This document shows, piece by piece, positions 2,963-41,282 of a stretch of 64,000 nucleotides of DNA (positions within the stretch are counted from its first letter, which is position 1; each line of letters opens with the position of its first letter). Made by a program: the position numbers and the translations under genes. The DNA is from Psammoneis japonica (lineage: Eukaryota), in NCBI GenBank assembly GCA_008632985.1, contig QPGO01000008.1, forward strand, positions 724,979 to 788,978, in the 5' to 3' direction. Under the pieces are notes generated by a model. That model ran no database searches. It was not told the origin of the DNA and saw nothing but the letters and a program-made list of their open reading frames with translations.

Positions 2963-2966
2963 TCAG

Positions 2967-8548: not shown

Positions 8549-10133
8549 CCCCTTTCCAGTGCAGGCTCACTGGTGAAGGATGGCAATGGCAGGGCCGCGT
8601 TGTGTGTGGATGACACCACCGGCAGTGACAATGGGAATGTCTGCTGGTTGATGATCATTGACACCTTGGACGTCAACGTCATTGGGCTTTGCGTCGGAGC
8701 GGACGGAAGGTGCAGATCCGGGCGGTTTCTCACCAGAACGGGCAGAAGGAGGCTGTTCAGGTGCCAGGAGATGTTGCAAGTCGCCGGGTGGCAGGGGCTT
8801 GTGCCTGGTGAGATGAGCCAGAATGGGGTCAGCATCGGCTGCATCAGCTGCAGCGTCGGATTGTGCGAAGGCTGATGCAAGATCGCAAGTGTTGGCGGAC
8901 AAGTTGACACTGCATCACTGCCAATGTGGAGGTTGTGCAGGTTGACCACCGTCAAGTCATGGCAGTTGCCGGTGTGGGCGGTGTGCGAGCCAAGAATGGC
9001 AGCCTTGGTGGACTGGGGCAAGGTGTCCCAAATGCGCTGATGGTCCGGCGGGATGCGACGCCATTGTTCCTTGGTGAGGGAATTGCCACGAGTTTGTGCA
9101 GCACAAGCTTGGATGATGTCAACATCACTGTCGATGTCAAAGAACACATCGTCATCAGGGTCGTCGGGGACTGGGTCGTGTTCACAGATGGCACGGCACG
9201 GAGCGCGAGGAGCCATCTTGGGGGCGAACGTGCTGTCGTGCTGTGCTGCAGCAGAAAGCAGGAGTCCACAGTGCTCTTCGTAAGAGAGCCCCTTTCCATT
9301 CTGCGTGCAGAACTGATCGGCCTGATTCTTCATGGAACGGAGTTCTTCGATGGGATGAATGGCATTCTCAAGCATGACACATTTCTGGCCAGCAGAGAAA
9401 TGGTCCGCACCCGGGACAAGAGCTTCGTGCTTGCGAAGCTGGTCCTGCCAGTGAAGTGTGAAGGCATGAGTGGATCCTTTTCAGGTGCCACTGCCAAGGC
9501 GAGCAGTGGTGAGGTACGTGAGAAGGGTTGAGGACTCCAGGGATGCGTGAGTGGAAGTGAGGGTGCACTTGGAGAGGTCACAACAGACCACTTGAGCATC
9601 AGAGGAGCCAACATGTTGATGAACAAGTGCCTTGCCTTTGTCATTCTGCAAGATCCGTTCAAACACTGCGAACATGCACTTCTGTTGTTCATCAAACAGG
9701 GCCTTGTCCTCAGCTGCAGAGGGCTTGTACGTCGGGTTGAGAGTGCATGCGATGTCTTGGGAGTGGGCCTGTGCGATGACGGAGGTGTGCCATGTGTGCC
9801 ACTGTTTGTCGGACTTGAGGAGCGCGAAGGCAAGTGGGTCACGTTTGATGCCTCGTTTAAAGTCACACACAGGATCATGTGGTTTGGGTGGCAACAAGCC
9901 AGGAGTGGGAGCAGATGGTGCTGCACCCATGGAGAAGGACGCCACACACTCAGGACTGAGATGACAGTTGGTGAACTCCTCTTGTGTGAACAATTGAGGG
10001 TCATTGCCAACATCCGCGCCGCCGTGCGCTTTTGCCGCATGCAGGCTAATCAACGCAGCCATCTGTGCTTTGTGACCATGTGGCAAAGGCATTTGATTGG
10101 TGCCGTCATTGTGTGCAAGGGCATCCAATTGCA

Positions 10134-10532
10134 GACACGTTCCAGCTCTAGGTGGGACCTCGCACTGCTGCACTGTGACATCAATGGTTTTTTGGATCGC
10201 GTCGCATGTCGCACACGTGCATTTCTGTGTGTCACATTCTACGAAATTGTTTCACATTTTCCCTGTTTTGCGAAGCCAAAGGCTTTCTATTTTCAACAGT
10301 TGTGAGAATGAAAATGCATTGGGTGCATTCTTTAATGTCTGTAGAATGCACCTGGGCAAACTGTCATTGATGCACTCCAAGCATGAAGGAGGAGACACGT
10401 TCGTAAAATTGCCTCTTTTTCTGTTGGCGATCATTCACATTTTCATTGCAGTGTGAAATTACTGCAGAGCTCACACGCAGAATTCTGCGGGCCCAATGTC
10501 ACACGGAGTCCCACCTGGGGCTGGAACCTGTC
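10134..10532. mobile_element. MITE inserted in Copia-1 gag
   Basis: 25-bp TIRs (GACACGTTCCAGCTCTAGGTGGGAC vs GACAGGTTCCAGCCCCAGGTGGGAC) flanked by TGCA on both sides. Removing 403 bp puts gag ORFs 10499-10681 and 9481-10173 in one frame. Confidence 0.85.
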
Positions 10533-10744
10533 TGCATCGGAGCAAAAGTGAAAAGGTCCTGATGCAAATCGGTTCCATCAATGTTGAGGGCGGAGCGCAA
10601 TGGACTGTCTGCGGCTTGATTCAGAACAGTGCCTGGAATGTGCTCGAGGCCATCAATTTGCTGTTGCCTGGTGAGAGCCATGTTGCAACTGGGTGGATGT
10701 CGGAACTGGCAAGAATCAAAGTGTGGGCTTGAAATGACTTGAAA

Positions 10745-10787
10745 CTTGACTTGAATCTTGACTTGAATCTTGACTTGATGTCTTGAA
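10745..10787. repeat. Short tandem repeat (CTTGACTTGAAT x~3.5) in the Copia-1 leader
   Basis: Seen directly; 12-bp period. Confidence 0.8.
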
Positions 10788-11506
10788 CCATCTCAAGAGT
10801 CAGAAGCCGCCGGGCTGTGATGTCCCGTTCGCAGTTAAGTGCCAAGCTTCCCATCCAGTCTGCAGAGTTGTGCCGGCATGTCCGAACTCACAGCTGGCGA
10901 TGCTTTGGGTTGCTTGAGAGCAGAGTGACGGGTTAAAAACCCCTGCTGACAAGCCATCCAGAGGTGGACAAGACCTCCGAACCGTTCTTGTTTTATGTTG
11001 GTTGGACAACCTGATCAGGCCGGCCAAATTTGGCGCTGTGGATGGACGAACAAACGTGGGAAATGCACCCTCGCCCCAATGCAGGCTGCAATCACAAACT
11101 GCTTCCTCTCACAGTTGTCCTCGTGGACCTTGTGGGACTGTAGAAGACCAGCAATCTGGTGCAGATGCAAGGCGGTAGACTTGGCGTGCGTGGAGCAGAG
11201 CCAGACTCAGGGGTTTGTGTCGTGTGCACGTGGACGCAAGCGGATGGATTGGCAGGATCCACTGTGAGGAATCCAGAATCTCGGATGTCTGAGAATTTGG
11301 GAATTCCTGGCCAAACAAACATCCGTTGAACAAACACATCCAACGATGGGAGGCATTGGATAAATCCAAACATGTAGATTTAATCCAGCACCCAGCAGTG
11401 AAGAAGGCAGATGTGTGCTTCCACCACCAATGGTGCACGTTGTCGAAAAATTTCTCGATGACGATGATGAACGCTCAATGGATGATGAAGAGCAAGGCTG
11501 TCAATC

Positions 11507-11755
11507 TGACAGAAAATGAAGATGACTGGGTGGAAGAAAACAACAACTCCTTGCTGCTGTCTGAATGGCAGATGAGTCTCCGTGCAGAGACTGTTGCAGG
11601 AGCTGAAAGACTGGTGTCGTGACGTCGGCACTGCTGTTGTTGTTCTTGTGAGCTGAGTGGCTCAAAAGCAAACTACATCGCGCGCACGACGTGCGTGGAA
11701 CTGAGGGCACACACAATTGTGTGTGATGAACTAAAATCTTGTTCAAATCCTGTCA
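11507..11755 (-). repeat. Copia-1 5' LTR (249 bp)
   Basis: Matches 6837-7081. Flanked by the TSD GTTGT. Confidence 0.95.
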
Positions 11756-13053
11756 GTTGTCAGGACAAAATTTGCACCCCCCAGAGTCATTGCAGAGAAG
11801 CAGCTGACTGAGTGGCACCATGTGCAGCTGCATCATCCAGGAGAGACACATGCAGGCCAGAAAGTGCTGCTGCCCAGCATTTTCTTCACTGGAGAGACAC
11901 AGCAGCACAAACTGCATGCTCCAAATTTCAGCTTGGTTTTGCCATGAGATCCCCTGAAATTTCTCAGGATTGCTGGGCAGTGGTCACAAATGCTGCTTTG
12001 TCATGTGTGCACTGCAGACATGAATGTAAACTCACACGTTGGGAATTCTCCATGCTTCCCCTTGCACAATTTGCCACTCAATGGACTCACACACCAAAAC
12101 CGTGTGACACCACAGCAGACAACACAAGCCAGAGTTCACTCAATGATGTGTCAACTTCTGTCAGCATGCTTCAGCTCACATTGTGTGTTTCATGCATTGC
12201 CATGCTTTGAAAGTCATGCTGCACTGTAAAAAAGCAAGTTGTTCTTGTGCATGATTTTTCCCTTTTTTTTAGATGCCACAACATCCCGTGCATCTGCTCT
12301 CCTCCTAGATCACCATGGGGCCACATGAAAGTTCATAAGATGTGACATGATTTTCATTGCTGAGCCTCTGCAAGGTCCTCTCATCACAAAAGCATCAATT
12401 GCAGTGACTGCCAAGTGCTCGAGTGGGATGGCTGGCTGGGCTGGCAGGCAAAAGCACACCCACCCAAACACAATCACTGCACAATTGCCGCACAATTCGC
12501 TTTTTTTGTTCCCCTCCCCTGGGCCCTTTCAGGTGTTCAGTGCCACAAAACTGCTCTTGTTTCCTGGGTGTTCCCCCAAAAAGGCATGGCAGCTCCTCCT
12601 TGCCTTGGTCATTTGGGTGAGATGTCCCCCAAAGAGGCAAAACCAAGCTGAGCTCCAAACACGCGACTCATGTCAAAGGACAAAAAGGCGCAATCTCAGA
12701 TGTGGGGGCTGCAGTGCAAAGAAAAAAGCAGCAGAAATTGTCCCATGGGAAACCACAAAATTTGCACCCCAGAGTCATTGCAGAAGCAGCTGACTGAGTG
12801 GAGCCATGTGCAGTTGTGCAGTCCAGAAGAGACAAACAAAAAGAAGTTGCTGTTGTGCCCGGCATTTTGACAACTGGTGCAACATGACAGCCATGTTGAA
12901 TCATGTCACAGAAGGTTTAAAAAAAAAGACACAATCTCAGATGTGAGGAGCTTCCCCAAAAGAGGCAGAAAATTGTTCCATGGGAAACCCTTTGAGAGCA
13001 GGTGTGGTTGGAGAGAACACACAGTCAAGAAGTGCAAAAATGAGACGTCTCAG

Positions 13054-13500
13054 TGCAGTGTGCATGCAGACAAAAGGTTGTTTTTGTCACGCCCTTTGTG
13101 ACATTTAAAGGCTGCAACACGTCGCCGTGACACATTGGCTCTCATTGGCAGCTGTGTGTTGCACTCCTCCCCATGTGTCACGCGTCCACACGGCTCTTTG
13201 CTGACGTGTGCTGACACTGCACGGTTTTGGCAGAACAGTGTGGGTGCGTGCGAAGGAACACACAGAACTGCACAGAGTTTTGCGCGTTCGACAGTGATCA
13301 ACGTTGCTGCAGACAACTCCCACTCAGGGTTTCGAACCCCTGGCCTCCTGCCTGATGGTTGCGATGAACCACTCCACTGTGAATTCACAACGCAGCATGC
13401 ATGCAGACAAAAGGTTGTTTTTGTCACGCCCTTTGTGACATTTAAAGGCTGCAACACGTCGCCGTGACACATTGACTCTCATCAGTGGCTGCATGTTGCA
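13054..13500 (-). mobile_element. TRIM-like miniature LTR element (447 bp) with an internal tRNA-like segment
   Basis: Two 110-bp direct repeats (13054-13163, 13391-13500) around 227 bp. PPT CATGGGGAGGAG on the minus strand directly before TGCAAC. Internal A-box-like and B-box-like (GGTTCGAAACC) motifs. Confidence 0.75.
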
Positions 13501-14307
13501 CTTTGCACTTGCGGGCAGGCCAATGGCTGTGGTTGTCCCAGTGGCTGAACAGTTTGAAATTGCCCAACTGACTGCCAAACATGCCAGCATCACAGCCCAC
13601 ATCATCAAACAGACCCTTGGTCATTTTTTTTCACCACCAAGAATGGCGGGCACATGATGCACAAACCGGCAGCCACACCAACTCAACAAGCATGACTCAG
13701 CTTCAGTGCAAATTTGCCATTGGTGAGCTGCAGCCAAAAAACACCTCACCGTGGCAACTCCACTTCAACCAAGGAACTGAGTTCATGGCTGAATTTTCAG
13801 TCAACTGGCTCAAGAAGAGGGCTGTGGTCTCCGAAAGAAACCCACAAGCAAGCAAAATCTGTGGGTGAGCACCACAGTGGAGTGTGCAAATCAGATGATC
13901 AGGAACATGGTGTGGCCATTCTCAGTTCAACACATGTGCAAGCCTTGTGCAGCTGGCAAGGCATTTGACAGAGATGTGATGTCACACACCACACATTGAG
14001 CCACCCAAGTGGAAATCTGCATGGGACAGAAAGCAAAGAGAAGCTTCTTGTTCACACGACAAACAACAAAAAACAAAATGCCGCTGAGAGACAAAACTGC
14101 TGATGTGCTCTGCAGCACAATTGGCACTCATCAAACAAGAACAAAAATCATCATGTGCAGGCCCTGCCAGAGTCATGCAAGTCAATGACAATGGCGCGCT
14201 GCACACACAAGATGGTGTGCCAACAGACAGGTGCAATCCAAGGCACAGCAGGCTGCATTGGTGCATCAGACCATGCTGGTGCTTCATGATCCATGTGACA
14301 GGGGAGC

Positions 14308-14802
14308 ACGCAACATGTGATGCTGACTTCTGGCAGATGCCAGCCACATCTCATGATGCGGAACTTCCAAAGTAAAGCCAGAGTCCTGGAAGAAGTTTGC
14401 ACTGTGACATGCCTGTGTGAGCTTGCACTCATTTTAGCAAGTGGAAGAAATGCTGTGATTGATGGCATCAGCTGCAAGTGCACTGCACAGAGAGGTTGTG
14501 CAGTGACTGGCCATTGACGTCATGCCTTGGATGCATGAAGACTGCACATGCAAGGCATGTGCTGTGCAGCATTTGCCAAGCCCCAAGCTGAATGTGGTGG
14601 AGCAATGCTTTTGCCGCAGTTCACAGGTGAGCATGCTCATGCAGCTGCATGAAGCGAACATGGCTTCCATGCAACCAAAGATTTCTTGGCCAAATGAGCC
14701 AGCTCAGAAATGTTCTCACAATTGCAGTCAACCACAGTCTGTCAACCTGCCCAATTTCAACCATGTGCCCATTGCATGAGGCACAGGAGATTGCCCCAAC
14801 AC
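14308..14802 (+). repeat. Gypsy 3' LTR (approximate)
   Basis: Follows the integrase C-terminus (GPARVMQVNDNG) and the PPT. Aligns with 2967-3466. Confidence 0.75.
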
Positions 14803-14806
14803 TCAG

Positions 14807-16375
14807 CAAAGACCCAAGCTTGGGGGATGTGCTCCAGAAGCCAATGCAGAATCAAGCTGTCCCACTTTGCTCATCCAACTTGGTGTCACTTCAGCTGCAG
14901 TGAATGACCACCATGGCAAGGCCATTTTTTGAGTGACAGGCACCTTCTTTTGCACTCCATTTTGAAAACAGCTTTTGCAAAATGCCCTTGCTCAACCTTT
15001 CTTGGATGCTCCCTCTTTGGAAGAACTTCACAAGATCAGCACGCAAAAGGACAAAGAGTTTGTGGGATGGCTTTTTGCATCAGGCCTGCCCTCCTTGCCA
15101 ACCCATTGAGCAGAGTGGCAAAGTGAAACCACCATGTGCTGGAGCTGCAGTTTCAAGGGTTTCTGGTCGGGAAGTCAGCTGACTCTTGTTTGTGGTGTGA
15201 AGATGTGAAGATGACCAAAGAAGACACTCTTGGCTCTGGACAAAATGGTGTGAGGATTGATGGGCAGTTGAATGTTGTTCTGTTGCAGCTGAAGCATGGG
15301 GCGGTGCTGGGTGCTGGCAGGCCCAACAGCAGCAGAAAGAATGAACAAACATCACAAGCAATTTTCTGGCTGCATGGCTGACCTTTCAAGGCACAGAAGC
15401 ACGCACAAGATTTCACAGTGGAAGGGTTGTTGGCTTTGTTGTGGTCATGTGCAACAACAAGCAATCACCCCATGCAGAGGCATGCTGCCTTTCAGCACAG
15501 TTGACGAGGAGGGAGGGAGGACAACCAATGTGGTGTGGAGCCAGCATCAAAAAGAATTCAAGCAGTCTCATTTCAACAAACCTGACAGGTTGGACCACGC
15601 AGATGGATCAATCTGGCAAGTTGTGACTGGGTTTGGTTGGTGCACCTGTCAAGCCAACAAGAAGAAAACAAGAAGCACCAGAGCAAGAGGTGTGCTGTGG
15701 AGGCAAGACACATGTGCCAATTCTCATCATCATCCTTGGCATCACAAACATTGGCCAATTTCAGCCAGCTTGAGCTCTCAGGAGAGTGGGGTCATGGCTG
15801 AGCAATTGCCACCATTCCATGAAGGGGGGTCAAAATCTAGGCTGGCATGCACCCTCAGCCAGTTCTTGAACCACCTGGGGAGCAAGAGCCATCGCAAATG
15901 GCGGTTTGCCAAACTGCTGGCTCTGTGACAGAGCAACTGCTGGGCTGGTGGAGAGCTGTGGTGCACCATGACCACCCCCAGCACACATTGTTGTGTTGTT
16001 GAGAATTGTCCTGTTGTGCTGGATTTAAAATTCATGACCAGCCACAAACTCCAAATTGGCAACATCTTCCTCAACCCTCCAAGCACACAGCATGCTGTTT
16101 TCTCCCCACGGGCACGCACACTCACACACAACACAAGCAAAGACATTGAGCTGCAATGTTGTCACCAGAATGCACAGAACTGAAATTGACCAGCTTTGCC
16201 ACTCAATTCCAAGGAATGCTGTTGCCACCAATCATGTGCAAGAAATGACAACAAATGATGATGTTTCAGCCTCAGAAAACTCCAATCAACCAACTCACCC
16301 ACTGATCAACTTTTTGAAAAACACAAAACGCTGTGCGGCACCGCGCGGGCGCTGCCACAACTTGCCAAAATGTCT
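14807..16375. mobile_element. Unclassified degenerate transposon relic (right part of the sequence hit by the Gypsy insertion)
   Basis: Same TpA/CpG-depleted composition. No intact ORF. Ends abruptly at ~16375. Confidence 0.45.
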
Positions 16376-25803: not shown

Positions 25804-27027
25804 GATTACCGATTATCTGTGTATCTACACTATCACCGCAAAAGCTACGGTCCTTGCTATTCGCTCTTCGACAGGTGTCAGTGGCGTTGCAGATTGCAGG
25901 TCGCAGGGTGCTATTGCTAGCTCTAGAGAAGTATCTTGCAGTAAGTGTGTCGAGTGTCGATGACGCAGATGCAACAAGAGGTGCTATGCAAAGCAAGATC
26001 GCGTGCGAGCGAGTGACGGACGGACTGCCCACGATCTCCCTTTCTATTCTATCTGCAAGTCGTCCGGATCGTTGTTGCCGTGGTGCTGCGGAGTTCATTC
26101 AGTCGCACTGGGTGCTGACTTTACGGCATGTGGGGCCCTGCTCTCTACCAGCTAGTGGCAGGAATTAAAACACTGTGGGTTCCCGTGACTGTTCCACATG
26201 AGAAATCCAGCATCCCCAACAAAATTGTTGTGGTGTTTTGTCGAAGTCAGCAGGCAAGGGTGTTGCCGACCAAGCCCCGCTCGAAAATCTCATTGCGACA
26301 AAACCAGCTGGCACACCTCTCACTCAATCTCTCTTGGCAATGATGTGCCAGAGACACATTGCATGACGCACACATGCCATTCTTGCCATGTCCGTGTCAG
26401 AAATGGGCCAAGGCAAGCATGCGTGCATCATTGCCAAAAGTCTGCAACACGCCGTTGTGCTGCTGGTGTGTCATCAAAACATCGGGCCAGTGGGAGAGAG
26501 CTCTGTTTCTCCCCCTGCTCATGCCAGCTGATGCACTCTCATTGCAGAGCTGACCTTGTCTGGGAGGCTTTCTGATCACAGACATCATCCAAAGAAAGAG
26601 CCTCATTGACTGAGATGTGTTTTTGAGCAGCACCCCCGTGCCTGCAAAGTCTTCCTCTCCATGGGCACCCCAAGCATGTCATGTCATTGCCAACCAAGCT
26701 CTAGACTCACCAGAGTTCAAAAAATCCAGTTCAACAAAACTCTGCTGGCTCTCTCTCTCTCTTCAATTGACTTTCCTTCTTGTGTCACTGTCTCTTCTTT
26801 GTGTGCACAAAAAAAGCAAGAGCAGTGTTGCTTTGCAAGGGTGGGAAGCAAGTTTCCATGCAGCCCCATTGTCTGTCCAACAATGCACAAGAAATCTTGT
26901 GCATGCTGCCTTGACCTTGTGATGGATTTCAAAGTGGAGGACACACATGTGCCGCTCCTCAATGGCCAACAGCGACCACGCAACAGGGCACCTCTAACAA
27001 CCAGACCTTTGCACACAGCTCCACAGT

Positions 27028-30000
27028 TGTCAGCAGACTGGCTGCTGTCTGCAGTCAGACTGTGTGCCAACAACAAGATGGGCTCTTTAGGCAGATGAGC
27101 AGATCTCTCTGAGATCAGCTTCTCTCACTCTTTCTCACTGGCACATGTGTCATCCACTGTCGCCAGTTTGCAGGGAGCTCTTTGGCTTGTTTCACTCTTG
27201 CCATTGGCACTCTGTCAGGTTGTGTCACCCTTTTGTTGCTTCCTCTGACTTTGATTGGGATGCAGAGTCAAAACAGGTCATTCAAGGCACTGGCACCTCC
27301 GCTTGTCTCAAGGACAACACCAGGTGCATCTGCCAAAATGCCACCATTGAAAAACTTTTTTGCTCCACAGGCTGTGGTGCAAGCTCTGCATGTGCATCTT
27401 TGTTTTTTTTAGAAGTCTTGCTTGATGGACATGCAGTTGAATTTGGGTCACAATTCATCTGTGTTGCAACTTCCACCATGATTTTTTGGGCTTGTGAGCT
27501 GAACAAGCATGCCACCATTTTTGATCCTGGAACAGAGTTTTTCACAGCGCCCAAGACAATTCTCTGGGCCACAGAATCACACCAAGCTCTGCATGTTTTT
27601 TTGGCAAAAAATCATCACACCGATCTCACCATGGCACATCCCACCCCAAAAAAGGGCACCGTTGACACCCTTGCCAAGATCTCCGTGGTGTTCAAACCAC
27701 ACACTCACCAATGAGATGCTTCCAAGCACCTGAACAGCTTGCGTGGTGGCTCTGTCATCAATCTGGATTAGTTCTTTGATGATGACAAACATGCATGATC
27801 AAAAGATGGTGTTGTTGATCTCTCAACTGAGCATGTCATTCAAGAGATGATCCTCCCAGAGACTGTGCACCCTGCAGATGAGCTTGCAGTCATGCAGTTG
27901 ATCGACAAGTGCCCTCTGCGCATCACCACTGGAACCGCGGACAACTCTCTTTCTTGCCTTTCTTGTCAGATGCTAGATCACAAGATCAGGACTGCTCTCA
28001 AGATCAAGCATGCAAAGGTGATCAATGCAATTGATCCCAGGAATGTTCATTTTGACCCCAATGTGAAGCACTCACATCAGGATTGGAGTGAGTTTGCTGA
28101 CACCCCACACCCACCAATGTGCGCACCCAAGACCTCTGCATCATCATCTGCCAGTTCAGGTGGACTCACAATCTCTGATTTGATCACTGCTTGGAACAAC
28201 AACCATGCTGCAATGGGCACACCAGCAACAGGAGCTCCCAGTGGATCTAAGACCCCCACTGTGACCTTGTCTTCCAAGCTCTTGTTCAGCCCGGATGCTT
28301 CACCTAAAGATGTCTGTGAATGATTTGACCACAAGGCCAAAGAGAAGGTGGTCCTCCAGAACTCTCTAGTCCAACACTCCAGCAGATTCATGCATCATTT
28401 GGATGGTGCAGACCAGCTTGTCCCACCCAAGAATGGCTCTCCATTTGTCATGACTTTGACCCCAGATCATGAGGCTTCATTCCAAGAAACCAAGCTTGTG
28501 CCATGGTCTCCTCACGGCATTTGTCAGCAGTGCATCAATTTTCAGCATCACGGCACTGACAGTGGCTGCAACATGCATCCCCTGTGGTGTTTCAAATGCA
28601 GCCAAGGTGATGACACAGGTTTCACCACCAGCAATGCCCCCCTGGCAACCATCTGCTGCAACACATGTGCTCAGGTTGCCTCTTGGCATTGCATGCATTG
28701 CACAAGCTCTTGTCACATCTGGACATGCTGTTCCTGAAGAACAGCAAGCTGTGCTGCATTGTGGCCACTTGCGCTGTGGTGGCAATGTTGTTGCTGCAAA
28801 GCCTTGAAACAGATTCTAGATTCTGTTTCAAGTTCATCCAGCTTTTTGCAGCCAATGAAGCAGCAGGTTCAGTTGACTTGTGCCCCAAGCAAGGCAACAA
28901 CCTCTCCATCAATGACTGCTTTGTGCTCTTCAAGGATTTTCTGCAGCCCTGTGCATTTGATTTTGATGATGATTTGTCGCTGGACAATGACAGTGGTGAG
29001 ATGACTGTTTTTGTCAAGAAGGCCAAGCACTCAAAGTTCTTGACCTGTGTCACCAAGAATGAACAAGCCTCTCCAGCTCTTCAGTGCAAGTGCACTGAGA
29101 AGCACTTTGTGGAAACACTTGGCTTGTTTCTCAGTCAAGCTGACAGTCCCCTTGCTCATGAGTCACCAGCCAGTTGAGTGCAGAACCCCTGCCAGTCCTG
29201 CAATTGCTGTCACACCCCATGCCACACAGCTGACATCAGCAGTCTTGATGCAGTTGATCCACCTGAAATGGAACCTGCTCCTGCTGATGATGTCCCTGAT
29301 GATGCTTTGGTCCCACGTGACAACACCTCAGAAACCCTTTGTGATGAATTGGAAGCCATGGGTGTCCCTGCCAAGGACAATGATCGTGTCCTTCATCACA
29401 CTTGCTCAGCTTTGGTGTTCAAGCTCAAGGCACCCCCAGCAGAAGCCACCAAACATCCATGTTTGGTGTGTGCACTGGCAACCATCTTTTTGATGATTGT
29501 CCCATTCTGCAGAGTGACCCTCTTGCATCAAGGATTTTCACATTTGCTTCTGTCAATCATTGAAACATGAAGCCACTCAGCATGCTGCTGCCTTCAATGG
29601 CACCCAAGGACTCTTGCCTGCTGGACAGAATGGGCAAGCCACCTCTCTTGCTAAATCTCAGCTGGAGGATTTTCAGTCGGGCCATCGCAGCCAGTTTTGG
29701 ACCAGGGACGCAGCCCGTCATCTCCTTTCTGAGACAAAACAGATGACCATGGGGGCAACTGTGAAAGAGGGACTCACCATTCCATTGCCTTTTTGGACCT
29801 GGGATGCAGCCTGTCATCTCCTTTCTGAGACAAAACAGATGACCATGGGGCAACTGTGAAAGAGGGGCTCACTGTTCCGTTGCCTTCCACTGACAAACCT
29901 CATTCTTCACAAGACAATTTCATCCAGAATTGCGTGAGACACCTGTCCTCCAATGTCACCTGATGTCAAGACTCTCACAAACAGGTGCTCCACGCAGTCA

Positions 30001-33000
30001 ACGGTGAATGGAAACAAGACTTCTTCACAGTGGATTGTTTCTTAAAATCCAAAGACCAAGGAACCTGCAAGCATGTTGTGAAACATTGCATGCAAAAAGC
30101 TCAAGACATCATCATCCATGGTCAGCTTGACAATGTCAAGTGTTTTGCCCATCCTTCAATCTTCCCAGAATTGAGTGAGACACTTGATGCAGCAATGTTG
30201 GAACTCAAAACTGCTGACCTCAAGCTTGGAAAAGAATTCAATGCAGTGGTGGGACACACAATTGATGCCCACAAAGAGAACCCAGAGCATGCCATGAAGA
30301 AACAACACAAGCTCATCCCCTGAGTGTGCCAAGATGTTCCCTTCAAGACACACCTTGAGGACAAGGCACCAGCCGCCCCAATCTCTTGAGGCTGACACCA
30401 AACGTGCACTTTGGCATCAACGTCTTGGCCATCCCAGTGATCACCACTTGCATGACACCCACAAACATGTCAAGGGTGTTCCCAAGCTTGCTCATGGTGA
30501 ATCTCCTTTGGACACTTGTCCTGCTTGCATTTGTGTGAAACAGAGACAAAGAGCCCTGCTGGCCCCAACTCCACACACACCGTGACCCAGGCCTGTCAAG
30601 GACCAACAGTGGATTTTGCTTTCTCCAGTGTCAAATTGAAGAATGAAGAATGTGCAATGGATTGTGCCAGCCTCAATGGAGAAACTTGTTGGATTCTCAT
30701 TTACAACCACCACACCCGTCATCTCCAATGTGCCTTGATTGAACATGACATCTTCTCCCCTCCTCCTCTCCCACCAAAAAAGAAGAGCATGTCCTGGAAC
30801 CAACCATGGCAGATGCATGAGCTGTTGCTGAGCTGTGTTTCCCTCACATTGATTTCTCTGTGCTTGACAATGTGGAATCTGAATTCCTCCTGACAATTGA
30901 CCATGCAACACACGGCACTTTCAACAGTTTTGTGATCTTGTCTCATGCCATCACACTGGAAGAGCAACCTCTGAACAGTTTTCCTTGCAACTGCCTCAAG
31001 AAACTGCCTGCATGGGACAAGTGGCATGCAGTGAATTCAAATGCTCAATCATTTTCATGCCATGGGCATGTTTGGTGCACCAATCAAGTGACCAAATGAT
31101 TCAATTGCACTCTGTCCCAATTGGCAGTGCAATGTCAAGATGGATGGCACTCTGTGTTCTTGCTGTTGCTGTGGTGGTTCCTCATGTGCTGCTCCTGCTT
31201 TGCACTGTCTTCAGTCTGCCCATTCCTCCTGCATGGAACAACTGATGCAACATGTGTTTTTTGCACCATCAGCTTTGATGGGATGCCGAGTGCACTCTGG
31301 TGATGTGCAGGATGCTTGTGCCCACTCACCTCATCCTTCAACACCAGTGTTTGTTCAGATTGATGAGGCTTGTGCCACATGGCAATTGCTTTGGTGTTGA
31401 CTTGGGAAGGTCTGTGGTGCTGCTGATCCTCCATGCCTTGCAACAAGGACACCCAGAATCTGGTGCACATTGGGAGAATCACATCAACAAGATTCTTGCA
31501 GATGCCAAACCATTGTTTCACAACACTGCCCATCACAAGTGCATCCATGCCTCCATGTTTGAAGGCAAGCAGATCCTCCTCCTCCATCAGGTTGATGATT
31601 TTCTGACAGCATGTGAAGAGGAATTGCACACCATCAAGATTTTGATGCCATTGGTGAAGTCCTCTGCCTCTGGGCAAAGACTTGATCTCTTTCAAGTGCC
31701 TTGGCCCATGCAATGAGTTCAATGGTGTGGACATCCACCAACATGATAACTCACATCAATTGCATGCTGTGCATGTCTTGATCAGGTCCTCACATCACAT
31801 GGTTGGCTTGTCCCCGCTGCTGATGAATTGGACACTGATTGTCATGCTGCTTCCCTCCCAGTTGAGTGTGTTTCGAAACTGTGCTCCGATGTTGGACCTG
31901 TAAATGCACTCCCAAACATGAGGAACTTGCTGAACTCCATGGTTTTGGCTGTCAAAACCTGCTTGGTGAGTTGTCAGGTGCCTGCGTGATTTGTCATCCT
32001 GACATTGGTCATGCCATCACTGCCCTGTCAATGCCCTGAAAGGCCTTGCGAAGTGTCTTCATCACAACAAGCATTGGGGTGTCAACTGCAAGACACCAAC
32101 CAAGGACACCACACAGCTGTTGCACTCTTTTGAATGATTGGAGTTGGACCCCACCCTTCTGGAGTTCCCTGTTGCAGATTCACCTGCTCAGTCACTTGGT
32201 TTCTTGGATGCAGCACATGGCAATGACCTCTGCAACTGTCGCTCCACTGTTGGTGGCTGTGAGTGCATGCTTGCTGGTGCCACCATTTTGCATCAGCGCA
32301 AGATGCAGATGGTTGCTGCAATGAGCTCTGCTCAGGTGGAGTTCCATGCAGCTGGCACTGCTGCCAATCATGCCCTGTGCCTCTGCTCAGTCCTTTGGGA
32401 ACTTGGTTTGCCCAGGATGGCCCCACCCTTTGTGTGTTGACAATGAGCCAGCCATCAAGATCATCAATGACCAGATCCCTGCAATGCATTCCCACCATGT
32501 TGATGTTCAGTGGTTCACAATTCAAGACTAAAATGAAGCCAGGCATGTTGTCACTTGACACACTCCTGGCACTGTCAACGTGACCTTGCCAAGGCTCTTG
32601 GATCCATGCTGCATGCACGCCATGCCATCGGATGATGGGACACTGTCAATGACACTCTGTTCTGCTCAACTGTGTCTTCTCTAGAGCTGCCCTGGGTTCC
32701 TTTTCTATCTGTTCTCTTTTTGAGTCATCTGGTTTGACCTGTGTTCCTTTGATTGTTGATTGTTTCCTGTCACACCCTCCTGTTTTTTCTGTCTTTGACC
32801 CACCACATTGGCTTCGGAGTTGACATGCTGCTGGATCAGGGGAGGGCATCAGCAGACTGACTGCTGTCCATGGTTAGACTGTGTGTGGATGACAGATGGA
32901 CTCTTTAGATGGACAAGCAGCACAGATCTCTTTGAGATCTGCTTCTCTCACTCTTTCTCACCAGCGCACGTGTCATCTGCTGTCACTGCTGGTTTGCAGG

Positions 33001-33044
33001 GAGCTCTTCAGCTTGTCACTCTCACCATCGGCATTCTTCTGTCA
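27028..33044 (+). mobile_element. Ty1/Copia (CoDi-like) LTR retrotransposon, degenerate
   Basis: LTRs 27028-27217 and 32847-33044. PPT AGGGGAGGG 32838-32846. TSD ACAGT/ACAGC. GAG-pre-integrase LWHQRLGHPS, RT ALQQGHPESG...QVDDF, RNase H FLDAAHGNDL...SS-VEFHAA. Confidence 0.92.
29695..29887 (+). repeat. 96-bp tandem duplication inside Copia-2
   Basis: TTTTGGACC...CATTGCC unit at 29695 and 29791. Confidence 0.9.
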
Positions 33045-33812
33045 ACAGCACCAACAGAGACCAAAGCTGACCCTTGTGCACAGCTCTGTGGCTCCAACAG
33101 AGACCAACACAGAAAATTGTGTGGTGGTTGGGCCTCTCCCCATCTCCTGCGGTGGTCAGCCAGCTGGTTCCCATGAGTCTTGTGATGGGTTCTTGGCCAG
33201 GAGACACAGAACAAGCAATGAGCAGCTCACAACTGCACCAAGCTCATTCTTGATTGTGAGCATTCTTTCATTGGCCTCACACATGAGCAATTGCCTTGTC
33301 ATCAAATTGGAGGATCTTGGTGCATTTGAGGCCACATTTTCGTCAAACACCACAAAGAGAAAAAAATGAGCACATGATGGTTCATGCAAGTGGTGGGTGC
33401 ATCGTTGTGCAGCAGGAATCTGCAACAAGACAAAGAGCAAGCATCCTTGACATGGGCACTGCATAATGACTCGAGCACTTCTTGGGTGCTTGGCTCATTG
33501 CAAGTCTTCCTTGGAGCGGCGCTCTCGAGCTGTGCCGTGAGTGACTACATCAGCATCGGTGTGACCGCTGATCTCATCATCGCAGGCAAATTTTCAAAAA
33601 TGCGTAGAACCCCACTGTACACTACACGGCGGATTCCTGATTCCAGTTTCACACCATGCAACAACAAGCAGTCTCAATGAGGCAACTCTCTCTAGCTAGC
33701 TAGAGGGTAATCACTACTAAAACGTTCAGAAACCAGAAGCACCCCCTAACCGAATAGACACTGCAGTCAGTTTTCAGTTTTACAAGAACAAATCAGAGGC
33801 ATCGCAGCAAGA

Positions 33813-35256: not shown

Positions 35257-36704
35257 ATCATGCATAGGGGGTGAGGGCGGCAAGGGGGCGACATGCTGTC
35301 ACTCAAACAGAATTGTATCTTTCATAGTTCCACGGTTTCTCCTGTCTTGATGACATCAACATCTAGTTGGCCATCTTAGAAAAGCTCTTTCTTTGGTGCT
35401 CAGTTCTTCGTCGTTCAGCTCGTTTTCCGTTTGAATGCGAACGCACTGCAAGACTCCAGGGTGTGCTGCACACTTTGTACTTGAGCACAAGCACTGCATA
35501 TCACTGTGTGACAGCTTGCACTCCAGCGACATGGCACCTTTTTTGTTTACATGTGGTTGTGTCAACAACTGGCAATGTGAGCAAACACCAACAAGAGGCA
35601 AGCAGTGCCACACTGCTGCTTGTCTCTCACAGACAGGTTTTTGGGTCCAGATGGACCGTTCTTTGCCACTGAAATCATTGTGCTTTAACCAGTTGAACTG
35701 TGGCCCAAATGCACAAATGGCCACAAACAGCAGCAGTTGACCAACAAAGAACTCCAACAGCTCTCTGTGAAGGAAACATCTGGAGCAGCAACAATCTCTG
35801 CAGAGAGCACACTGGCATCCATTCTCACCCTTGCTGTTCAGCCACAGTCCAGAGAGAAAACAGAAAGCACTCTTGAAACTGGCAAGGGAGCAGCCTGGAG
35901 CAAAGGCATGCAACATGGGACAAAGCATGCAAGAACCCAACCTGGCTTCATGCAACAAGTGTGGAAAATGTGAGGGCCAACAATGCCAGTTTGAAGAAAG
36001 ACAAGACCACCACAGCTTGTTTGGCAAGTTTGCCACACCATTTCACATTTGACACACTGTGCCAGCACATCTCTGCCCATCCATGACAATGCATGATGGA
36101 AAAAACAGAAAAAGAAAATGTCAATGAGCTTCTTTCTCTTGGCTGGAGCAGTTTGCACTTCTAAAAAATTAGAAAGTTGCAAAACAGCAACCCTCACTCT
36201 CTCAGCATTCATGGCAATTGCAAAGGCAGTGACCAGTGCAACAGGAAGATGTTGACTTTGGTGCTTCAGTGTTTGTGTGCTCTTTTCTTTTTTGCAATTG
36301 TCTTGCCCAAGCTGGGGGGAACCACAAGCCAAGCTCCGTGCTGCTTCAGCTCTTTTTGAAGGAGAAGAGTTGGGGCTGGTTGCCATTTCAACCTCTGATG
36401 CATCAGCAGCAGCACTGACCACACACCCATCTTTTGAATTCACAGGCAAAGTGGCCATGCTCCAAACACAGACTTGCAGCTGTGTCCGGAAACTGGCTGA
36501 GCAATTTGACATGCTCAGATTGTGCATGTTCAGGAGCAAAGCTTCCACACTCAACAGCAAAGCTTGCAGAGGAGGCACTGCAAATGTCTCATGCCTGAAG
36601 CACTGCACAACACCGCAAAAGTTTTTGCACACTTGACAGGGGGGCAAGAAATCATGCACACACATCTTTTCTGCTGGCCAAGCATTTGTGTGGATGCCGG
36701 CTCT

Positions 36705-36830
36705 CTCTCCCTGGGGAGACAATTTTGTGAAAGAGTCGTTGTTCCAGGGCCCATTGCAGCCAGAGCCTCTCCCTGGGGAGACAATTTTGTGAAAGAGTCA
36801 TTGTTCCAGGGCCCATTGCAGCCAGAGCCT
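36705..36830 (+). repeat. 62-bp tandem duplication
   Basis: Two copies differing by one CG/CA change. Confidence 0.9.
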
Positions 36831-39800
36831 GGGACAAATTTTTGCTGTGATCCTGTCACAAAATGCACAATTTTTATTTTACAACAAGTTTGCAGCACCA
36901 CGATCTCACACAGAAGCCTTGCTGGCATGTAAAAAAAACTCACCACAAAATTGTGCCAACAGAGAAAAAGCAGGCACCCACAACAGCAAATCAATGCTTG
37001 ACAAAAGCTCCCTCATTTGGTGTGCATTCCCATCTGTCAAGTGGGCAGCTGCTCAACAGGAGTTCACAGGTTTTTAAAAAGTGATGGGCCAATGGTTCTT
37101 TTCTTTAGTGGGCACACAGCACAACTTGACAGAGCTGCACATGGCATGCAGTGGAATCAGATGCAAACAGCCAAATCCAAAACCTCAAAATCTTGCCTTC
37201 TCTTGTCAGCAGCATTCTGGATTGTTGCATCAAAGAACAGTGTGCACAACTTTTTGCATGTGCCCAACCCTGCAGCACTGCAGAAGATGGGCCTGATGCC
37301 ACCAGAGAGATGTCACTGGAATCTGTTCAGGTGGAGCCAAAAACACCCCAATTTTAAAAATGACTTTGGTCAGAAGCAGCATTGGCAGCAAAACACATTG
37401 CTGTCTCTGCAGATGCTGATTGAGTGAACAAGAATGCAGCATGGGGCCCAGGAGTTGTGTGCAGCACACACTGCATTGTCCCCCCCCCCCCCCCTGCACC
37501 ACACAGCACACATGACTCTCTCTGCTCTGAAGCACTGGTGAAAACATTGATGTTCTTGTGCAGCTTTGCACTTAAAAGAAACTGGCAAAAATGAGTGTGA
37601 AAACCCTTGGTGCTTGGTTTGCTCTGGAGGACAGCAGGGCAGTCATTCAATGGACCATGATTGCCAGTGCATGCCAAGCTTGGGTGCTTCTTGGTGGCTT
37701 CATTGGACAACCTTGATGTTGAAAATGTTGCCATGCACAAATGATGCAAGATGCAACATTTGTCATTGGGTGGGACATCAAGATGTCCAAGCAAGTTCAT
37801 CACACAGGCTTGTGGAAAAGTGTCATTGTGGGGTGAGACTGTGCATCATCTGGGAGATGATGAACCAGAGGAGAGTCAGCTGGAGACTGGTTGGACTCCA
37901 GAGGGGAGCCAAGCATCATCACAGCACTGACCTCTGCATGCGCCATTTTGTTGCATCATTCTCTGGGATGGCAAGGGCTTTAGATCCATTGAGAAGAGAG
38001 GTCTGCAGCAATGGGGCTGTTGGACTGACTCAAAAAATGAGGGAAGTGTTTGCGCTTGCAGCGACAGTCTGACAAATGGCGCTCTGGATGTGTGACATGG
38101 GTTGCAAACTTCAAGTGCTTCTTGATGAACACAGTCATCTCCCTTTTGTTGTCTGATGAAGACTTGCACCAAAGATGTGGGCATGCACCACCAGCTGCAA
38201 AAACACCTTGAATTGATTGCAGCAACCCGCAAGAGAAAGGTCACCTTGACATGGGTGGCACTCAACACAACCAGCAGCCTTGTCACAGAAGGCAGAGTGC
38301 ACTTGAAAAGGGATTTTTTTCAAGGCTCTGCAGCCATCTGCACAGCATGAAGCACAAAGGTGGTGAAGCTTTCAGTTCTTGGAGAACATGACTGTGTGGG
38401 AGACAAGAGCTTGGAGATGGCATGAGCAGTGGTGCTGATGCAAAGCACACAAGTGTGCTGGGGAAAATCATCAGCAGACAAGTTGCCAATGGCAAATCTC
38501 CAATTTCCATCCATGGTTTTGCTTGAAATGCCACAAAGGATGGATGTGATGTCCACATGCCAAAGACTGATGTTGACAACTCTGATGCCATTGACAGATG
38601 CCATGCAAAGAGTCGTCATGTGACAGATGCTCAGTTCATGAATCAGAGGTTTGTGATCTGGGGTAGACTGCATCACAAGCAACAAGCCATCTGCCAGAAT
38701 GAGACAATCAGAGATGTTGTCAAGATGCCACAGATCACCACCTTCACAATGTGACAAGGAGCTCTTGGAGTGAAAACCTTGCAAGCAACCTTGTCGGCAA
38801 AGTGCTCCTCACAAACATCCTCAGAGGTGTGGGGAGCCCAGATTGAAGAGATGTTTGAACAACAAAGTTGCAGTGGGGGTCTTGGAGAGCAAAGAGCTGC
38901 CAGATGGAGGTGTCTTTGAGGCAGCACAGAGTTGTTGTTCAGTGCATCAACAAGATCCTTCATGTCAACAATGGCAGATGTGCAGCAGGAGTTGCTGGTG
39001 GAGCTTTGCAAGCATTCTTGGGTGGATGAGGGGTTGCAGAAAACTTGTTCCAATTGCAGTGTGATTGCTGCATGTTGGGGTCAAATTGAACATGCAAGAT
39101 GTTGACTATGATGACGACCTTTGTTTGACATGCCTGCAGAGTGAGTTTGATCTTAGAACCCAACATCTGTTGTCAAGGCAGGTGGGGTGGGCTGTCATTT
39201 GGCATTGGAGCTTGGACCTTGAAGAGAGCATGCTGCACAAAAGTCATGCAATGTTGGCAGAGTCTGACAAATCATTTGGTGTGCGATGGACTCCTTTGTG
39301 ATGGGCTTGCAAAGAAGTTGTGAAACATTGTCCTTGCTTTGGGTGTGTTTGTGGTCATCAAAAAATGGCTGCAAGTCAAAAGTCTTGCCAAAGCAAACAA
39401 CATTGACATGCACCCAAAGGCCTCCAGCTGAATTTTGCATGCACAGCAAACTGCTGGGCATCTAAAACAACAAGGGTGTCATGACATCTTTTCCTGTCTT
39501 GGATGGTGCCATGGTTGAGGTGCATGAAATTTTTGGTCATGAACAGCATGCAGAAGTGTGCATCATGGTTCTGTGGGGCCTGCGCGCCAATGAAAACACT
39601 TCCAGGATAAAAATGCAACAGGCTTGTTCCACTCTCAAACCAACAAATGCATCAAGGCACAAGTTGGTGCACAGAAGACATGCATTGCAACAAGGCCACA
39701 ACCTGACAGAGTGGCAACATTGGCAAGAACAACAAGCACATGGGACCTCCATGCAAGCTGGTGACAGTGATGACATGTGCACTGGCAAGAAAGAGTGAGA

Positions 39801-40834
39801 AGCAGACCTCAGACAGATCTGCTTGTCTGCCCAATCTAGATGCCTGACCATCATCCACACACTGTCTTGACATGTGAAGCAGGAGAGCAGGTCAACTGAC
39901 AGCTCCCTCATTTGTTGCATGTGTTTCTCTCTGTTGAGTGGGGAGCTGCTCAAAAGGAGCACTGCAAGTTTTAAGGGTGATGACAAGGTGCTGCTGGTGC
40001 TGAACTTTCTTCTTTGGCAGGTGCACAGTGCAACTCAATGGCTGTGAAGCATGTGGTGGCATCAGATGTGAGCAGCTGAGTCCAAAACCTCAGAATTTTG
40101 CCTTCTCTTGTCACCAGCATTCTGGAGGTGACAACCATGCCAAAGAAGAGTGTTTGCAACTTTTCATGTGTCTGACCCACCAACTGCCTCATGCTCTGAG
40201 TGGGTGGTTGAGTTCAGGCAGGTTGACAGACTGCAGCTGGTGATCGCAGTTGTGAGAACACATTTCTGAGTCACAGCTCATTTGGCTGGGAAATGTTTGG
40301 TCTTGTGAAAGCTGTGGCACCACTGTGCACTTCATGCAGCTGAATGAGTGTGTTCATCCATGAACAAAAAATGCCACTCCAAAGCACACTGCACTCAGTC
40401 TTCATGTGTCTCACAGTGCAGCAAGATGTTGATGGCCAGTCACTGCACAACATCTCTTTGTTGATCAACTGCAGTTGACACACTTGGCAACTCTGCCAGT
40501 GCCTCTGCTTGCTAAATTGAGTGAGTGTGAGCTCACATGGACATGCACAATGTGCACTTCTGCAACTCTGGCTTCATCTCTGACAAAGTTTGAGAAGTTC
40601 ATCATGGGATGATGCAGCTGGTGGTGTCTGCCAGCAGGCAGTGTCGCGTGTTCTTGCTGCACCACAGCTGCACAGCACCATGCACTAAAGACAACAGGTT
40701 GCTGCTGGAGAAGCTGCTGGAATCTGCTCAGGTGGAACAAGACACAGATTTTAAATGACACTGGTCAGAACAAGCAGGCAGCGGCAGCAGCAAAACAAGC
40801 TGCTGCCCCACCCTTTGCACACACAGCACTGATT

Positions 40835-40932
40835 GAGTGCCCCCATCAAGAAAATGGCATGGGGCCCTGGAGTTGTGTCGCTGAGAGCCCCCAACAAGAA
40901 AACAGCATGGGGCCTTGGAGTTGTGTGCCCAG
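40835..40932 (+). repeat. 48-bp diverged tandem duplication
   Basis: GCATGGGGCC(C/T)TGGAGTTGTGT repeated at 48-bp spacing. Confidence 0.8.
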
Positions 40933-41282
40933 AGTGATTTTCCACCCACAAAGCTCTCTGCATGGGGGCACTTGTTGTTGCGAACAAATTGCTGATGCTC
41001 GGACCCTGTCGGCAGTTCTTCTTGTGGCACTTGTTGTGTTGTGAAAAATTGCTGCTGGTGCTCTGACCCTGCCCATGGTTGTGGATTGAAAAGACACTCA
41101 GGAGTGACCAAGCTTGTCACAGGCAGCTGCTGGAAAGAGCAGTGCAATTTGATTTGATGTGATCAGAATCCCAAAGAATCGAGGGATTTTGGGATGTCTG
41201 CGATTGCTGCTTCAATCCTCCCCTGCTGCCCACCCGTGTGGCCGGCACCCACTGCACCCACCTCTGCCAGTGGCTCTTTAGG

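What the first reader, a model, noticed from the sequence alone, without database searches (positions are those of the whole stretch)
26200..33500. Surviving TAs are mostly YTAR, which points to a TAY-preferring mutator
Of the roughly 20 TAs I can find in block 2, about three-quarters are CTAG, TTAG, CTAA or TTAA. TAC/TAT and their complements GTA/ATA are nearly gone. Block 1 shows a similar but weaker trend. YTAR is the only class with no TA-pyrimidine on either strand, suggesting a 5'-TAY preference reminiscent of the UAC(G) substrate of TadA. Poly-A runs persist, which fits a WA (pol-eta) signature less well.
Basis: partly seen in the sequence, partly recalled or inferred. Interest (0 to 1): 0.75.

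Follow-up and report, generated by a model that had tools for sequence, protein, structure and literature searches.

The report
Flank rule of TA-erasing transposon mutator
In this diatom, inserted retrotransposon copies have their TA steps rewritten to TG or CA on both strands, fastest when the A is followed by T or C, a fingerprint that points to a still unidentified enzyme editing adenine in chromosomal DNA.

Summary
Confirmed. Block 2, a decayed copia-like element in a diatom genome, keeps 21 TA steps where about 293 are expected; 16 of 21 are YTAR (null 17%, p 6e-9). Survival alone cannot tell A>G in TAY from A>G in RTA, so I polarised changes in 26 copies of a young copia family against a little-mutated natural copy. 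Relative A>G hazard by the next base: T 4.4, C 3.8, G 1.6, A 1; 115 of 131 asymmetric sites go the TAY way; an unrelated pair repeats it (93 of 123). TA loss acts after insertion, on both strands, before CpG decay, almost only as transitions (740 of 743), with AA>AG about 50-fold rarer: pol-eta fits poorly. The TadA likeness is partial: no TACG bonus, hairpins not favoured, no strand clustering, and a roughly symmetric outer-flank effect suggests duplex DNA. Best reading: a chromatin-targeted DNA adenine deaminase; enzyme unknown. Precedent: a Bigelowiella preprint whose main text gives no flank rule. This scan noted the erasure and the YTAR rule before on other DNA of this genome.

The parts
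26200..33500 (.). Block 2: TA- and CG-depleted island, 21 TA left, 16 YTAR; sharp borders against genic DNA
27030..27213 (+). 5' LTR-like repeat (aligned core) of the decayed copia-like element
   Evidence: 77% to 32849-33037; 31 of 33 mismatches are transitions, 10 TG/CA swaps
32849..33037 (+). 3' LTR-like repeat (aligned core)
   Evidence: related repeats in 29 fetched loci
30409..30543 (+). GAG-pre-integrase remnant
   Evidence: PF13976 E 3.2e-5, below the curated cut-off
30935..32665 (+). Broken RT-RNase H region of a Ty1/copia element
   Evidence: 64-66% DNA identity over 1.5-1.9 kb to many copies; relative L010 has RVT_2 (E 9e-7, below cut-off) and SH3_retrovirus (E 1e-9) hits; frames broken by stops and shifts
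26200..27029 (.). TA-erased DNA left of the LTR, origin unknown
   Evidence: no match among the fetched loci for 26100-26850
33040..33500 (.). TA-erased DNA right of the LTR, origin unknown
   Evidence: no match among the fetched loci from 33100 on
1900..16000 (.). Block 1: TA-erased island, 53 TA, 28 YTAR
6837..11755 (-). Younger copia element inside block 1 (repeats 6837-7081 and 11507-11755, 89%): TA erased while CG is largely kept
   Evidence: tblastn to copia polyproteins; 23 of 23 LTR mismatches are transitions
35300..41000 (.). Block 3: TA- and CG-erased island, 28 TA, 17 YTAR; holds an inverted piece related to the block 2 LTR

Best explanation
Shown: a nuclear process mutates TpA to TpG or CpA in repeat DNA after insertion. 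It hits either strand, site by site, over patches of one to several kb, runs well ahead of CpG decay, and yields almost only A:T>G:C. Its rate rises about 4-fold when the edited A is followed by T or C (G 1.6, A 1), about 1.6-fold when A precedes the T, and 2-2.5-fold with an outer-flank effect that acts on both strands about alike (RRTAYY hot, YYTARR cold). YTAR is the only class with a slow A on both strands, so it is what remains in old relics such as block 2. Because TAT and TAC are the tyrosine codons, copies lose Tyr (to Cys or His) and die with long open frames. Inferred, not shown: the lesion is deoxyinosine made by a zinc deaminase (TadA/ADAT2-like by its motif) that is brought to silenced chromatin and works distributively on duplex or briefly opened DNA over many cell cycles; inosine is then copied as G.
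For: Series of copies with TA loss from 0 to 94% and TG about equal to CA; L109 has lost 69% of TA, 3.8% of CG, 0.3% of other A/T. Hot windows: TA>TG 740 of 1934, transversions 3, AA>AG 22 of 2884, GA>GG 13 of 3674. Competing-risk fit on 280 of 282 TA sites, 26 copies: +1 C 3.8 (2.7-6.1), G 1.6 (1.1-2.4), T 4.4 (3.5-6.9), 60 site bootstraps; +1 Y/R 3.2 against -2 R/Y 1.3. Replicated in pair L121/L123 (YTAR survival 19 of 50, others 19 of 245) and in five more families. Direction is the same in all three codon phases (YTAY TG share 0.72, 0.71, 0.73). Copies choose TG or CA independently (median agreement 0.56 over 165 pairs). Mutated copies L103, L106, L108 sit between matching 5-base duplications, and L103, L105, L108 have TA-normal flanks. 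Direct measurement of TpA-only A>G hypermutation exists in Bigelowiella natans (bioRxiv 10.64898/2026.01.13.699255). A TadA-8e variant shows a YAY > YAR hierarchy (PMC12528748) and ABE8e genomic off-targets fall at TA (PMC13225742). No AAG/MPG glycosylase match in G000 (not proof of absence).
Against: No enzyme found: the PF00383, PF14437 and PF02137 searches gave a housekeeping-looking set. 5' specificity is far stricter than ABE7.10 (TA 24.5% against GA 6.3%, PMC8065034). No TACG bonus and no hairpin preference. The two-base fit predicts 55% YTAR among survivors at 7% survival; block 2 has 76% and only one TTAA. Symmetric classes are not always even: TTAA 16 TG to 75 CA on 15 sites, RTAY 31 to 52 sites, strand term 0.78 in the main family and 1.07 in the others. 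In the older family, CTAC (4 TG, 35 CA; 3 sites) and CTAT (17, 35; 4 sites) went against the rule. The symmetric outer effect is approximate (free model better by 2.7 and 8.4 log-likelihood units). An EndoV gene is present. Sequence alone cannot tell a lesion on A from one on the paired T.
Confidence: 0.6

Rival explanations
1. A base modification at TpA in silenced DNA (a methylated adenine that is then deaminated, or a modified thymine such as O4-methyl-T or an oxidised T that pairs with G) is miscopied; the flank rule is that of a base-flipping writer acting on duplex DNA.
For: The outer-flank effect is about symmetric and changes are not strand-clustered, as for a duplex enzyme; G000 has many C5-methyltransferase matches, 29 places, including three intact-looking paralogues I read as DNMT4-like; diatom DNMT4 is related to RID and of unknown function (PMC9998398).
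Against: I know no such chemistry for TpA (recalled); no dependence on nearby CpG (0.89, 1.17, 1.04); ApT, the usual eukaryotic 6mA site (recalled), is not depleted (0.89).
Confidence: 0.14
2. An adenine DNA glycosylase (PabI-like, recalled to cut the A of GTAC) removes the A at TpA, and REV1 inserts C opposite the abasic site, giving A>G.
For: Acts on duplex DNA and gives the right change; REV1 inserts only dCMP and bypasses abasic sites (PMC6423074); five Y-family polymerase loci are in G000 (not assigned to subfamilies).
Against: Abasic sites give mixed outcomes, but 740 of 743 changes at TA are transitions; GTAC is not the hottest context (survival 0.38 against 0.25 for ATAT); no such glycosylase was searched for.
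Confidence: 0.09
3. Error-prone resynthesis by pol eta or pol iota, triggered by repair of deaminated 5mC, puts G opposite T at TA.
For: CG decay is 5-fold higher in TA-hot windows (85 of 2984 against 30 of 5681), AA>AG is slightly raised there (0.76% against 0.30%); Y-family polymerases are present.
Against: Pol eta errs at template TW, so at AA as well as TA, and a fourth of its in vitro errors are at C/G (PMC6423074); here AA>AG is about 50-fold below TA>TG and transversions are absent; TA loss far exceeds and precedes CG loss; patch synthesis would give same-strand neighbours, and none are seen (208 of 419 within 10 bases, 209.6 expected).
Confidence: 0.06
4. The ADAR-like deaminase of diatoms (L200) edits the DNA strand of RNA-DNA hybrids or the duplex at transposons.
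For: ADAR fold acts on duplexes; G000 has this gene besides an ADAT1-like one; an ADAR-like is listed for Bigelowiella natans and three diatoms (PMC11946409 Table S8; for Bigelowiella only in the less reliable initial tree).
Against: ADAR 5' preference is U=A>C>G (PMC11120146), which would edit AA; the gene is conserved across centric and pennate diatoms with no evidence that all of them erase TA.
Confidence: 0.07
5. Editing happens during the retrotransposition cycle (on the RNA or cDNA), or the pattern is selection or composition.
For: All families I polarised are copia elements; loss peaks in the 5' leader of the main family.
Against: Both strands are hit about equally (1489 TG, 1266 CA); the two ends of one element differ widely (L104: 13 of 16 lost in the first 400 bases, 1 of 9 in the last bin); loss grows with age; codon phase is irrelevant; repeated methyltransferase gene copies are erased too.
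Confidence: 0.04

Closest known systems
TpA hypermutation of integrated NCLDV and virophage DNA in Bigelowiella natans (Mettrop et al., bioRxiv 10.64898/2026.01.13.699255)
   Same: A:T>G:C transitions restricted to TpA, giving TpG or CpA by strand, regional, on foreign or mobile DNA, deaminase proposed but not shown.
TadA and TadA-derived adenine base editors (UAC(G)A; ABE8e-YA YAY > YAR)
   Same: A>G at TA with pyrimidine preferred at +1; clean transitions.
   Different: Here 5' T is nearly absolute (CA, GA, AA below 1% where TA is 38%), no G bonus at +2, no loop preference, no strand clustering; TadA acts on a tRNA loop and editors on displaced single strands.
Repeat-induced point mutation (RIP) of ascomycetes, RID/DNMT4 (mechanism recalled; relation of diatom DNMT4 to RID from PMC9998398)
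   Same: Repeat-directed, dinucleotide-specific, both-strand transition mutagenesis that kills transposons.
   Different: Opposite chemistry (CpA>TpA there, TpA>CpA/TpG here); dependence on sex or on pairing of repeats was not tested.
Pol eta WA mutagenesis in somatic hypermutation
   Same: A>G enriched at TA.
   Different: AA is spared here, no transversions, no same-strand tracts.
ADAR and protist ADAR-like deaminases
   Same: Duplex substrate, 5' U favoured; a gene of this kind is in the genome.
   Different: ADAR also accepts 5' A and acts on RNA; activity of the protist proteins on DNA is unknown.

Membership tests
Bigelowiella-type TpA hypermutation | Changes restricted to TpA, to TpG or CpA | tested here: met
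   740 of 1934 at TA against 22 of 2884 at AA and 13 of 3674 at GA
Bigelowiella-type TpA hypermutation | Confined to mobile or foreign DNA, genes spared | tested here: met
   exception to note: repeated methyltransferase gene copies are hit
Bigelowiella-type TpA hypermutation | Ongoing rate about 1000-fold above background, on in only some lineages | not testable with these tools
   needs mutation-accumulation lines; copies of similar background divergence differ from 0 to 69% TA loss
Bigelowiella-type TpA hypermutation | Same enzyme | not testable with these tools
   enzyme unknown in both organisms
TadA/ADAT2-type adenine deaminase footprint | 5' T(U) and 3' pyrimidine around the edited A | tested here: met
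TadA/ADAT2-type adenine deaminase footprint | UACG(A) extension, G at +2 | tested here: not met
   TACG factor 0.97; at +2 pyrimidines, not G, are favoured
TadA/ADAT2-type adenine deaminase footprint | Loop or single-stranded substrate | tested here: not met
   hairpin factor 0.61 (33 of 215 sites); no strand coordination, though lightly mutated stretches gave only 43 pairs within 100 bases
TadA/ADAT2-type adenine deaminase footprint | Inosine intermediate and a deaminase that makes it | not testable with these tools
   ADAT2-like (L136) and TadA-like (L133) genes are present, activity unknown
Pol eta WA signature | AA mutated as well as TA, mixed substitution types | tested here: not met
   against PMC6423074
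RIP | C>T at CpA or CpN | tested here: not met
   CA/TG is enriched 1.6-fold in the blocks, TA depleted
RIP | Triggered by repeat pairing in the sexual cycle | not tested
   no cross data
ADAR-type editing | 5' U and A accepted alike | tested here: not met
   AA about 50-fold below TA against PMC11120146
Ty1/copia LTR retrotransposon (block 2) | Terminal direct repeats, integrase before RT-RNase H | tested here: met
   repeats, pre-integrase remnant upstream of the RT region, copia domains in relative L010; the Pfam scores for block 2 itself and for L010's RT lie below the cut-offs

The most novel reading that the evidence does not exclude
Diatoms carry a natural adenine deaminase that works on double-stranded chromosomal DNA at TpA (best at RRTAYY), is steered to transposons starting at their 5' leader, and disables them by erasing tyrosine codons: an A-to-G counterpart of RIP, shared with Rhizaria, and a source of an unengineered double-strand adenine editor.
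Probability: 0.35. Interest if true: 0.92.

Novelty: new variant of a known kind. Interest (0 to 1): 0.66.

Why it matters
Targeted A-to-G mutation of chromosomal DNA has, in my searches, one direct report (a 2026 preprint on a chlorarachniophyte) and no identified enzyme. A polarised flank rule gives a fingerprint that candidate enzymes can be screened against in vitro, and it can be compared at once with the 231 published Bigelowiella mutations to ask whether two distant algal lineages share one machine. It also matters for practice: transposon ages, GC content and apparent intactness (long frames without Tyr) in such genomes are distorted by this process. If the enzyme acts on duplex DNA it would be of direct use for base editing.

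Tried and rejected
A>G in RTA as the rule behind YTAR survival: rejected by direction. Codon-level selection: rejected. Assembly artefact: rejected. CpG proximity, TACG, hairpin loops and strand clustering as drivers: not found. My first reading that the active lineage has a TA-poor 5' leader was wrong: it came from a mask that dropped sites mutated in most copies; unmasked, the leader is the hottest part, and the refit without the mask gave similar hazards (against 45). A 5'-to-3' gradient in five other families could not be judged, as the fetched stretches lack most 5' ends. Search for a deaminase fused to a chromatin reader: none seen in 12 PF00383, 6 PF14437 and 5 PF02137 matches, nor beside the seven of 29 methyltransferase places whose frames I read; other deaminase families were not searched, and intron-rich genes can be missed. 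Iyer et al. (PMC3239186, passages) names stramenopile deaminases with tudor or Rossmann domains; not looked for specifically. Breadth in other organisms: the 120 best of 1807 outside relatives of a Tyr-poor copy all have normal Tyr (2.9% or more, median 3.8%), which is uninformative because ranking favours intact proteins. No RNA holder listed. No TA-normal close relative of block 2 itself was found (best 83% over 296 bases, 73% over 785; all 30 fetched loci TA-poor), so the rule is measured in other families and carried over.
Full report
Setting. The window is G000:C7:724979-788978 of a 91.4-Mb, 597-contig genome. The nearest atlas cluster of a window gene is eukaryotic, commonest Bacillariophyta, and named homologues of another G000 gene are all diatoms; I call it a diatom and go no further. 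Three islands have lost TA: 1900-16000 (53 TA), 26200-33500 (21) and 35300-41000 (28), against about 40 per kb in genic DNA; TA is at 0.09 and CG at 0.24 of the genic rate, CA/TG at 1.6. Block 2 is mostly a decayed copia-like element with repeats at 27030-27213 and 32849-33037.

Observation. 16 of the 21 TAs are YTAR, against 15-17% in genic DNA and TA-normal copia copies (p 6e-9 or less); block 1 gives 28 of 53, block 3 17 of 28. TAC, TAT, GTA and ATA are at 1, 1, 1 and 2 against about 80 each; A/T runs persist. Public contigs agree with the window over block 2 except for 2 substitutions and 1 insertion.

Why survival is not enough. An xTAy site is lost by A>G on either strand. 'A>G when a pyrimidine follows' and 'A>G when a purine precedes the T' both leave YTAR. 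They differ in outcome: TAY predicts YTAY>TG and RTAR>CA, RTA the reverse. Block 2 has no TA-normal relative, so I used other families of the same genome.

A time series. An RVT_2 search (150 scored of 804 candidates) gave a young copia family; 43 matches were listed and I fetched 30 stretches. Against the little-mutated copy L091, TA loss runs from 0 to 94%, with TG and CA about equal. L109 has lost 69% of TA, 3.8% of CG and 0.3% of other A/T; the oldest copies have lost about 90% of TA and 53-61% of CG. TA loss therefore precedes CpG decay; the copia in block 1, TA-free with CG kept, is the same intermediate. Outcomes are independent between copies (median agreement 0.56 over 165 pairs; L107/L110 share 63 of 63 by descent, so L107 was dropped; the 5' part of L116, shared with L098, was dropped). 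In 18 young copies, windows with at least half of TA lost show TA>TG in 740 of 1934 adenines, 3 transversions, AA>AG 22 of 2884, GA>GG 13 of 3674, CA>CG 20 (denominator pooled in my table), CG>TG 85 of 2984 against 30 of 5681 in cold windows.

Flank rule. A competing-risk fit with a free exposure per copy and window, on 280 of 282 TA sites in 26 copies (4614 observations in windows with at least one change), gives hazards by the base after the A of C 3.8, G 1.6, T 4.4 relative to A (60 site bootstraps: 2.7-6.1, 1.1-2.4, 3.5-6.9); by the base before the T, A 1 and the others about 0.6; Y/R at +1 is 3.2, R/Y at -2 only 1.3. The earlier masked fit on 215 sites agreed. 115 of 131 asymmetric sites with a majority go the TAY way. 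In the six oldest copies survival is RTAY 3 of 377, YTAY 33 of 460, RTAR 18 of 115, YTAR 52 of 183. An unrelated pair, TA-normal L121 and TA-poor L123, gives YTAR survival 19 of 50 against 19 of 245 and 93 of 123 events in the TAY direction. Five further families (20, 10, 10, 4 and 3 copies, no intact reference) give TG shares of 0.61-0.78 for YTAY, 0.23-0.45 for RTAR and 0.47-0.56 for the palindromic tetramers. Codon phase does not matter. Direction alone ranks C 4.4 > T 3.0 > G 1.5 > A 1 in the main family and C 2.4 > T 1.6 > G 1.1 in the others, where the choice of sites flattens it.

Results against a simple rule. In the older family (17 copies) CTAC and CTAT went the other way on 3 and 4 sites and TTAA was 104 TG to 22 CA. 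In the main family TTAA is 16 to 75 and the strand term 0.78 (1.07 in the others). The two-base fit predicts 55% YTAR at block 2's survival, against 76% seen, and more TTAA than block 2 has; new TAs arising in an old relic and unknown ancestral composition may account for this, untested.

Clues to the substrate. The outer positions carry a 2-2.5-fold effect (pyrimidine at +2, purine at -3) that is about the same for both strands: it barely moves direction, and a symmetric model costs 2.7 or 8.4 log-likelihood units for 3 parameters on pseudo-replicated data. Neighbouring changes are not on the same strand more than expected (208 of 419 within 10 bases, 209.6 expected; 400 of 754, 384.9; 334 of 682, 330.9; lightly mutated stretches 21 of 43 within 100 bases, 20.7). 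TACG (0.97), hairpin loops (0.61) and nearby CpG (0.89-1.17) do not raise the rate. I infer a distributive agent on duplex or briefly opened DNA acting over many rounds. Loss peaks 600-1600 bases from the 5' end (0.59-0.71) and falls to 0.06-0.13 over the last 1.2 kb; heavily mutated copies can have TA-normal flanks, so targeting starts inside the element. Since TAT and TAC are the Tyr codons and the change makes no new stop, dead copies keep frames above 1300 codons with Tyr at 0.3-1.1% against 3.2%.

Candidates. G000 holds dCMP deaminase, a TadA-like gene (L133), an ADAT2-like gene (L136), guanine-deaminase-like and RibD-like genes (labels from my reading of motifs), an ADAT1-like gene (L199) and a deaminase-only ADAR-like gene (L200) conserved across diatoms. 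Five Y-family polymerase loci and EndoV are present; AAG/MPG gave no match. None is shown to be the agent.

Comparison with print. Mettrop et al. (bioRxiv 10.64898/2026.01.13.699255; I read parts 1-3 of 5, abstract to conclusion, plus a term search; supplement closed) measured 230 of 231 changes as A:T>G:C, all at TpA, in integrated viral DNA of Bigelowiella and proposed ADAT2; the main text gives no flank rule and does not mention diatoms. ABEmax RNA edits favour UACGA (PMC8052359, passages); ABE8e DNA off-targets favour TA (PMC13225742, passages); ABE7.10 separates TA from GA only about 3- to 4-fold with a small +1 effect (PMC8065034, passages); ABE8e-YA shows YAY > YAR (PMC12528748, passages). 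Pol eta errs at template TW with a fourth of errors at C/G (PMC6423074, one section and passages). ADAR1 5' preference is U=A>C>G (PMC11120146, passages). Diatom DNMT4 is RID-related (PMC9998398, passages); protist ADAR-likes are listed in PMC11946409 (passages and supplement part 3). PabI, RIP chemistry and 6mA at ApT are recalled. Two searches for TpA loss in diatom or algal transposons (25 of 35 and 15 of 70 listings seen) showed only the preprint; subscription journals are mostly not covered.

Earlier notes of this scan report the same erasure and the YTAR/TAY reading on other pieces of this genome; my reading was on record before I saw them, and they are not independent support. Two word look-ups for a candidate enzyme found nothing.

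Verdict. The observation and the TAY direction hold. The process works like an adenine-directed RIP and leaves a TadA-like core motif, but it fails two TadA features and has no identified enzyme. New variant of a recently described kind; interest 0.66.

Noticed in passing
L195 (G000:C301:35000-37500), L196 and L197 (G000:C297): At least four copies, 91-96% alike, of a C5-methyltransferase gene that I read as DNMT4-like are themselves TA-erased with CG largely kept, while paralogues L189, L190, L194 are normal. A repeated host-type gene is hit, or the gene travels in a mobile element.
   Followed up: partly
L200:572-2288 (G000:C79): Deaminase-only ADAR-like gene with a conserved N-terminal motif, found across centric and pennate diatoms; function unknown.
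   Followed up: partly
L091-L119 family, first 1.9 kb: TA loss peaks in the non-coding 5' leader and declines towards the 3' LTR; even 98-99% identical copies are already mutated there.
   Followed up: partly
L098 and L116: Share the upstream flank and 95% of 5' TA outcomes but lie on different contigs: alleles, a recombinant or an assembly chimera.
   Followed up: no
L140:1315-1773 (G000:C151): A decayed, TA-poor copy of a guanine-deaminase-like gene at the edge of a TA-erased island.
   Followed up: no
L131-L132 (G000:C41 and C317): dCMP deaminase gene with two deaminase domains in tandem, present at two places.
   Followed up: no
window 22177-24027 (+) and 24094-25812 (-): Convergent genes for a zf-UBP plus Sir2 protein and a DUF6937/DUF6938 protein whose other atlas neighbours are mostly bacterial.
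   Followed up: no
window 33750-35256 (+): MYND-finger gene with normal TA content wedged between TA-erased blocks 2 and 3, showing how sharp the borders are.
   Followed up: no
G000, PF02245 search: No AAG/MPG glycosylase match, while EndoV is present; would favour survival of deoxyinosine if the absence is real.
   Followed up: partly
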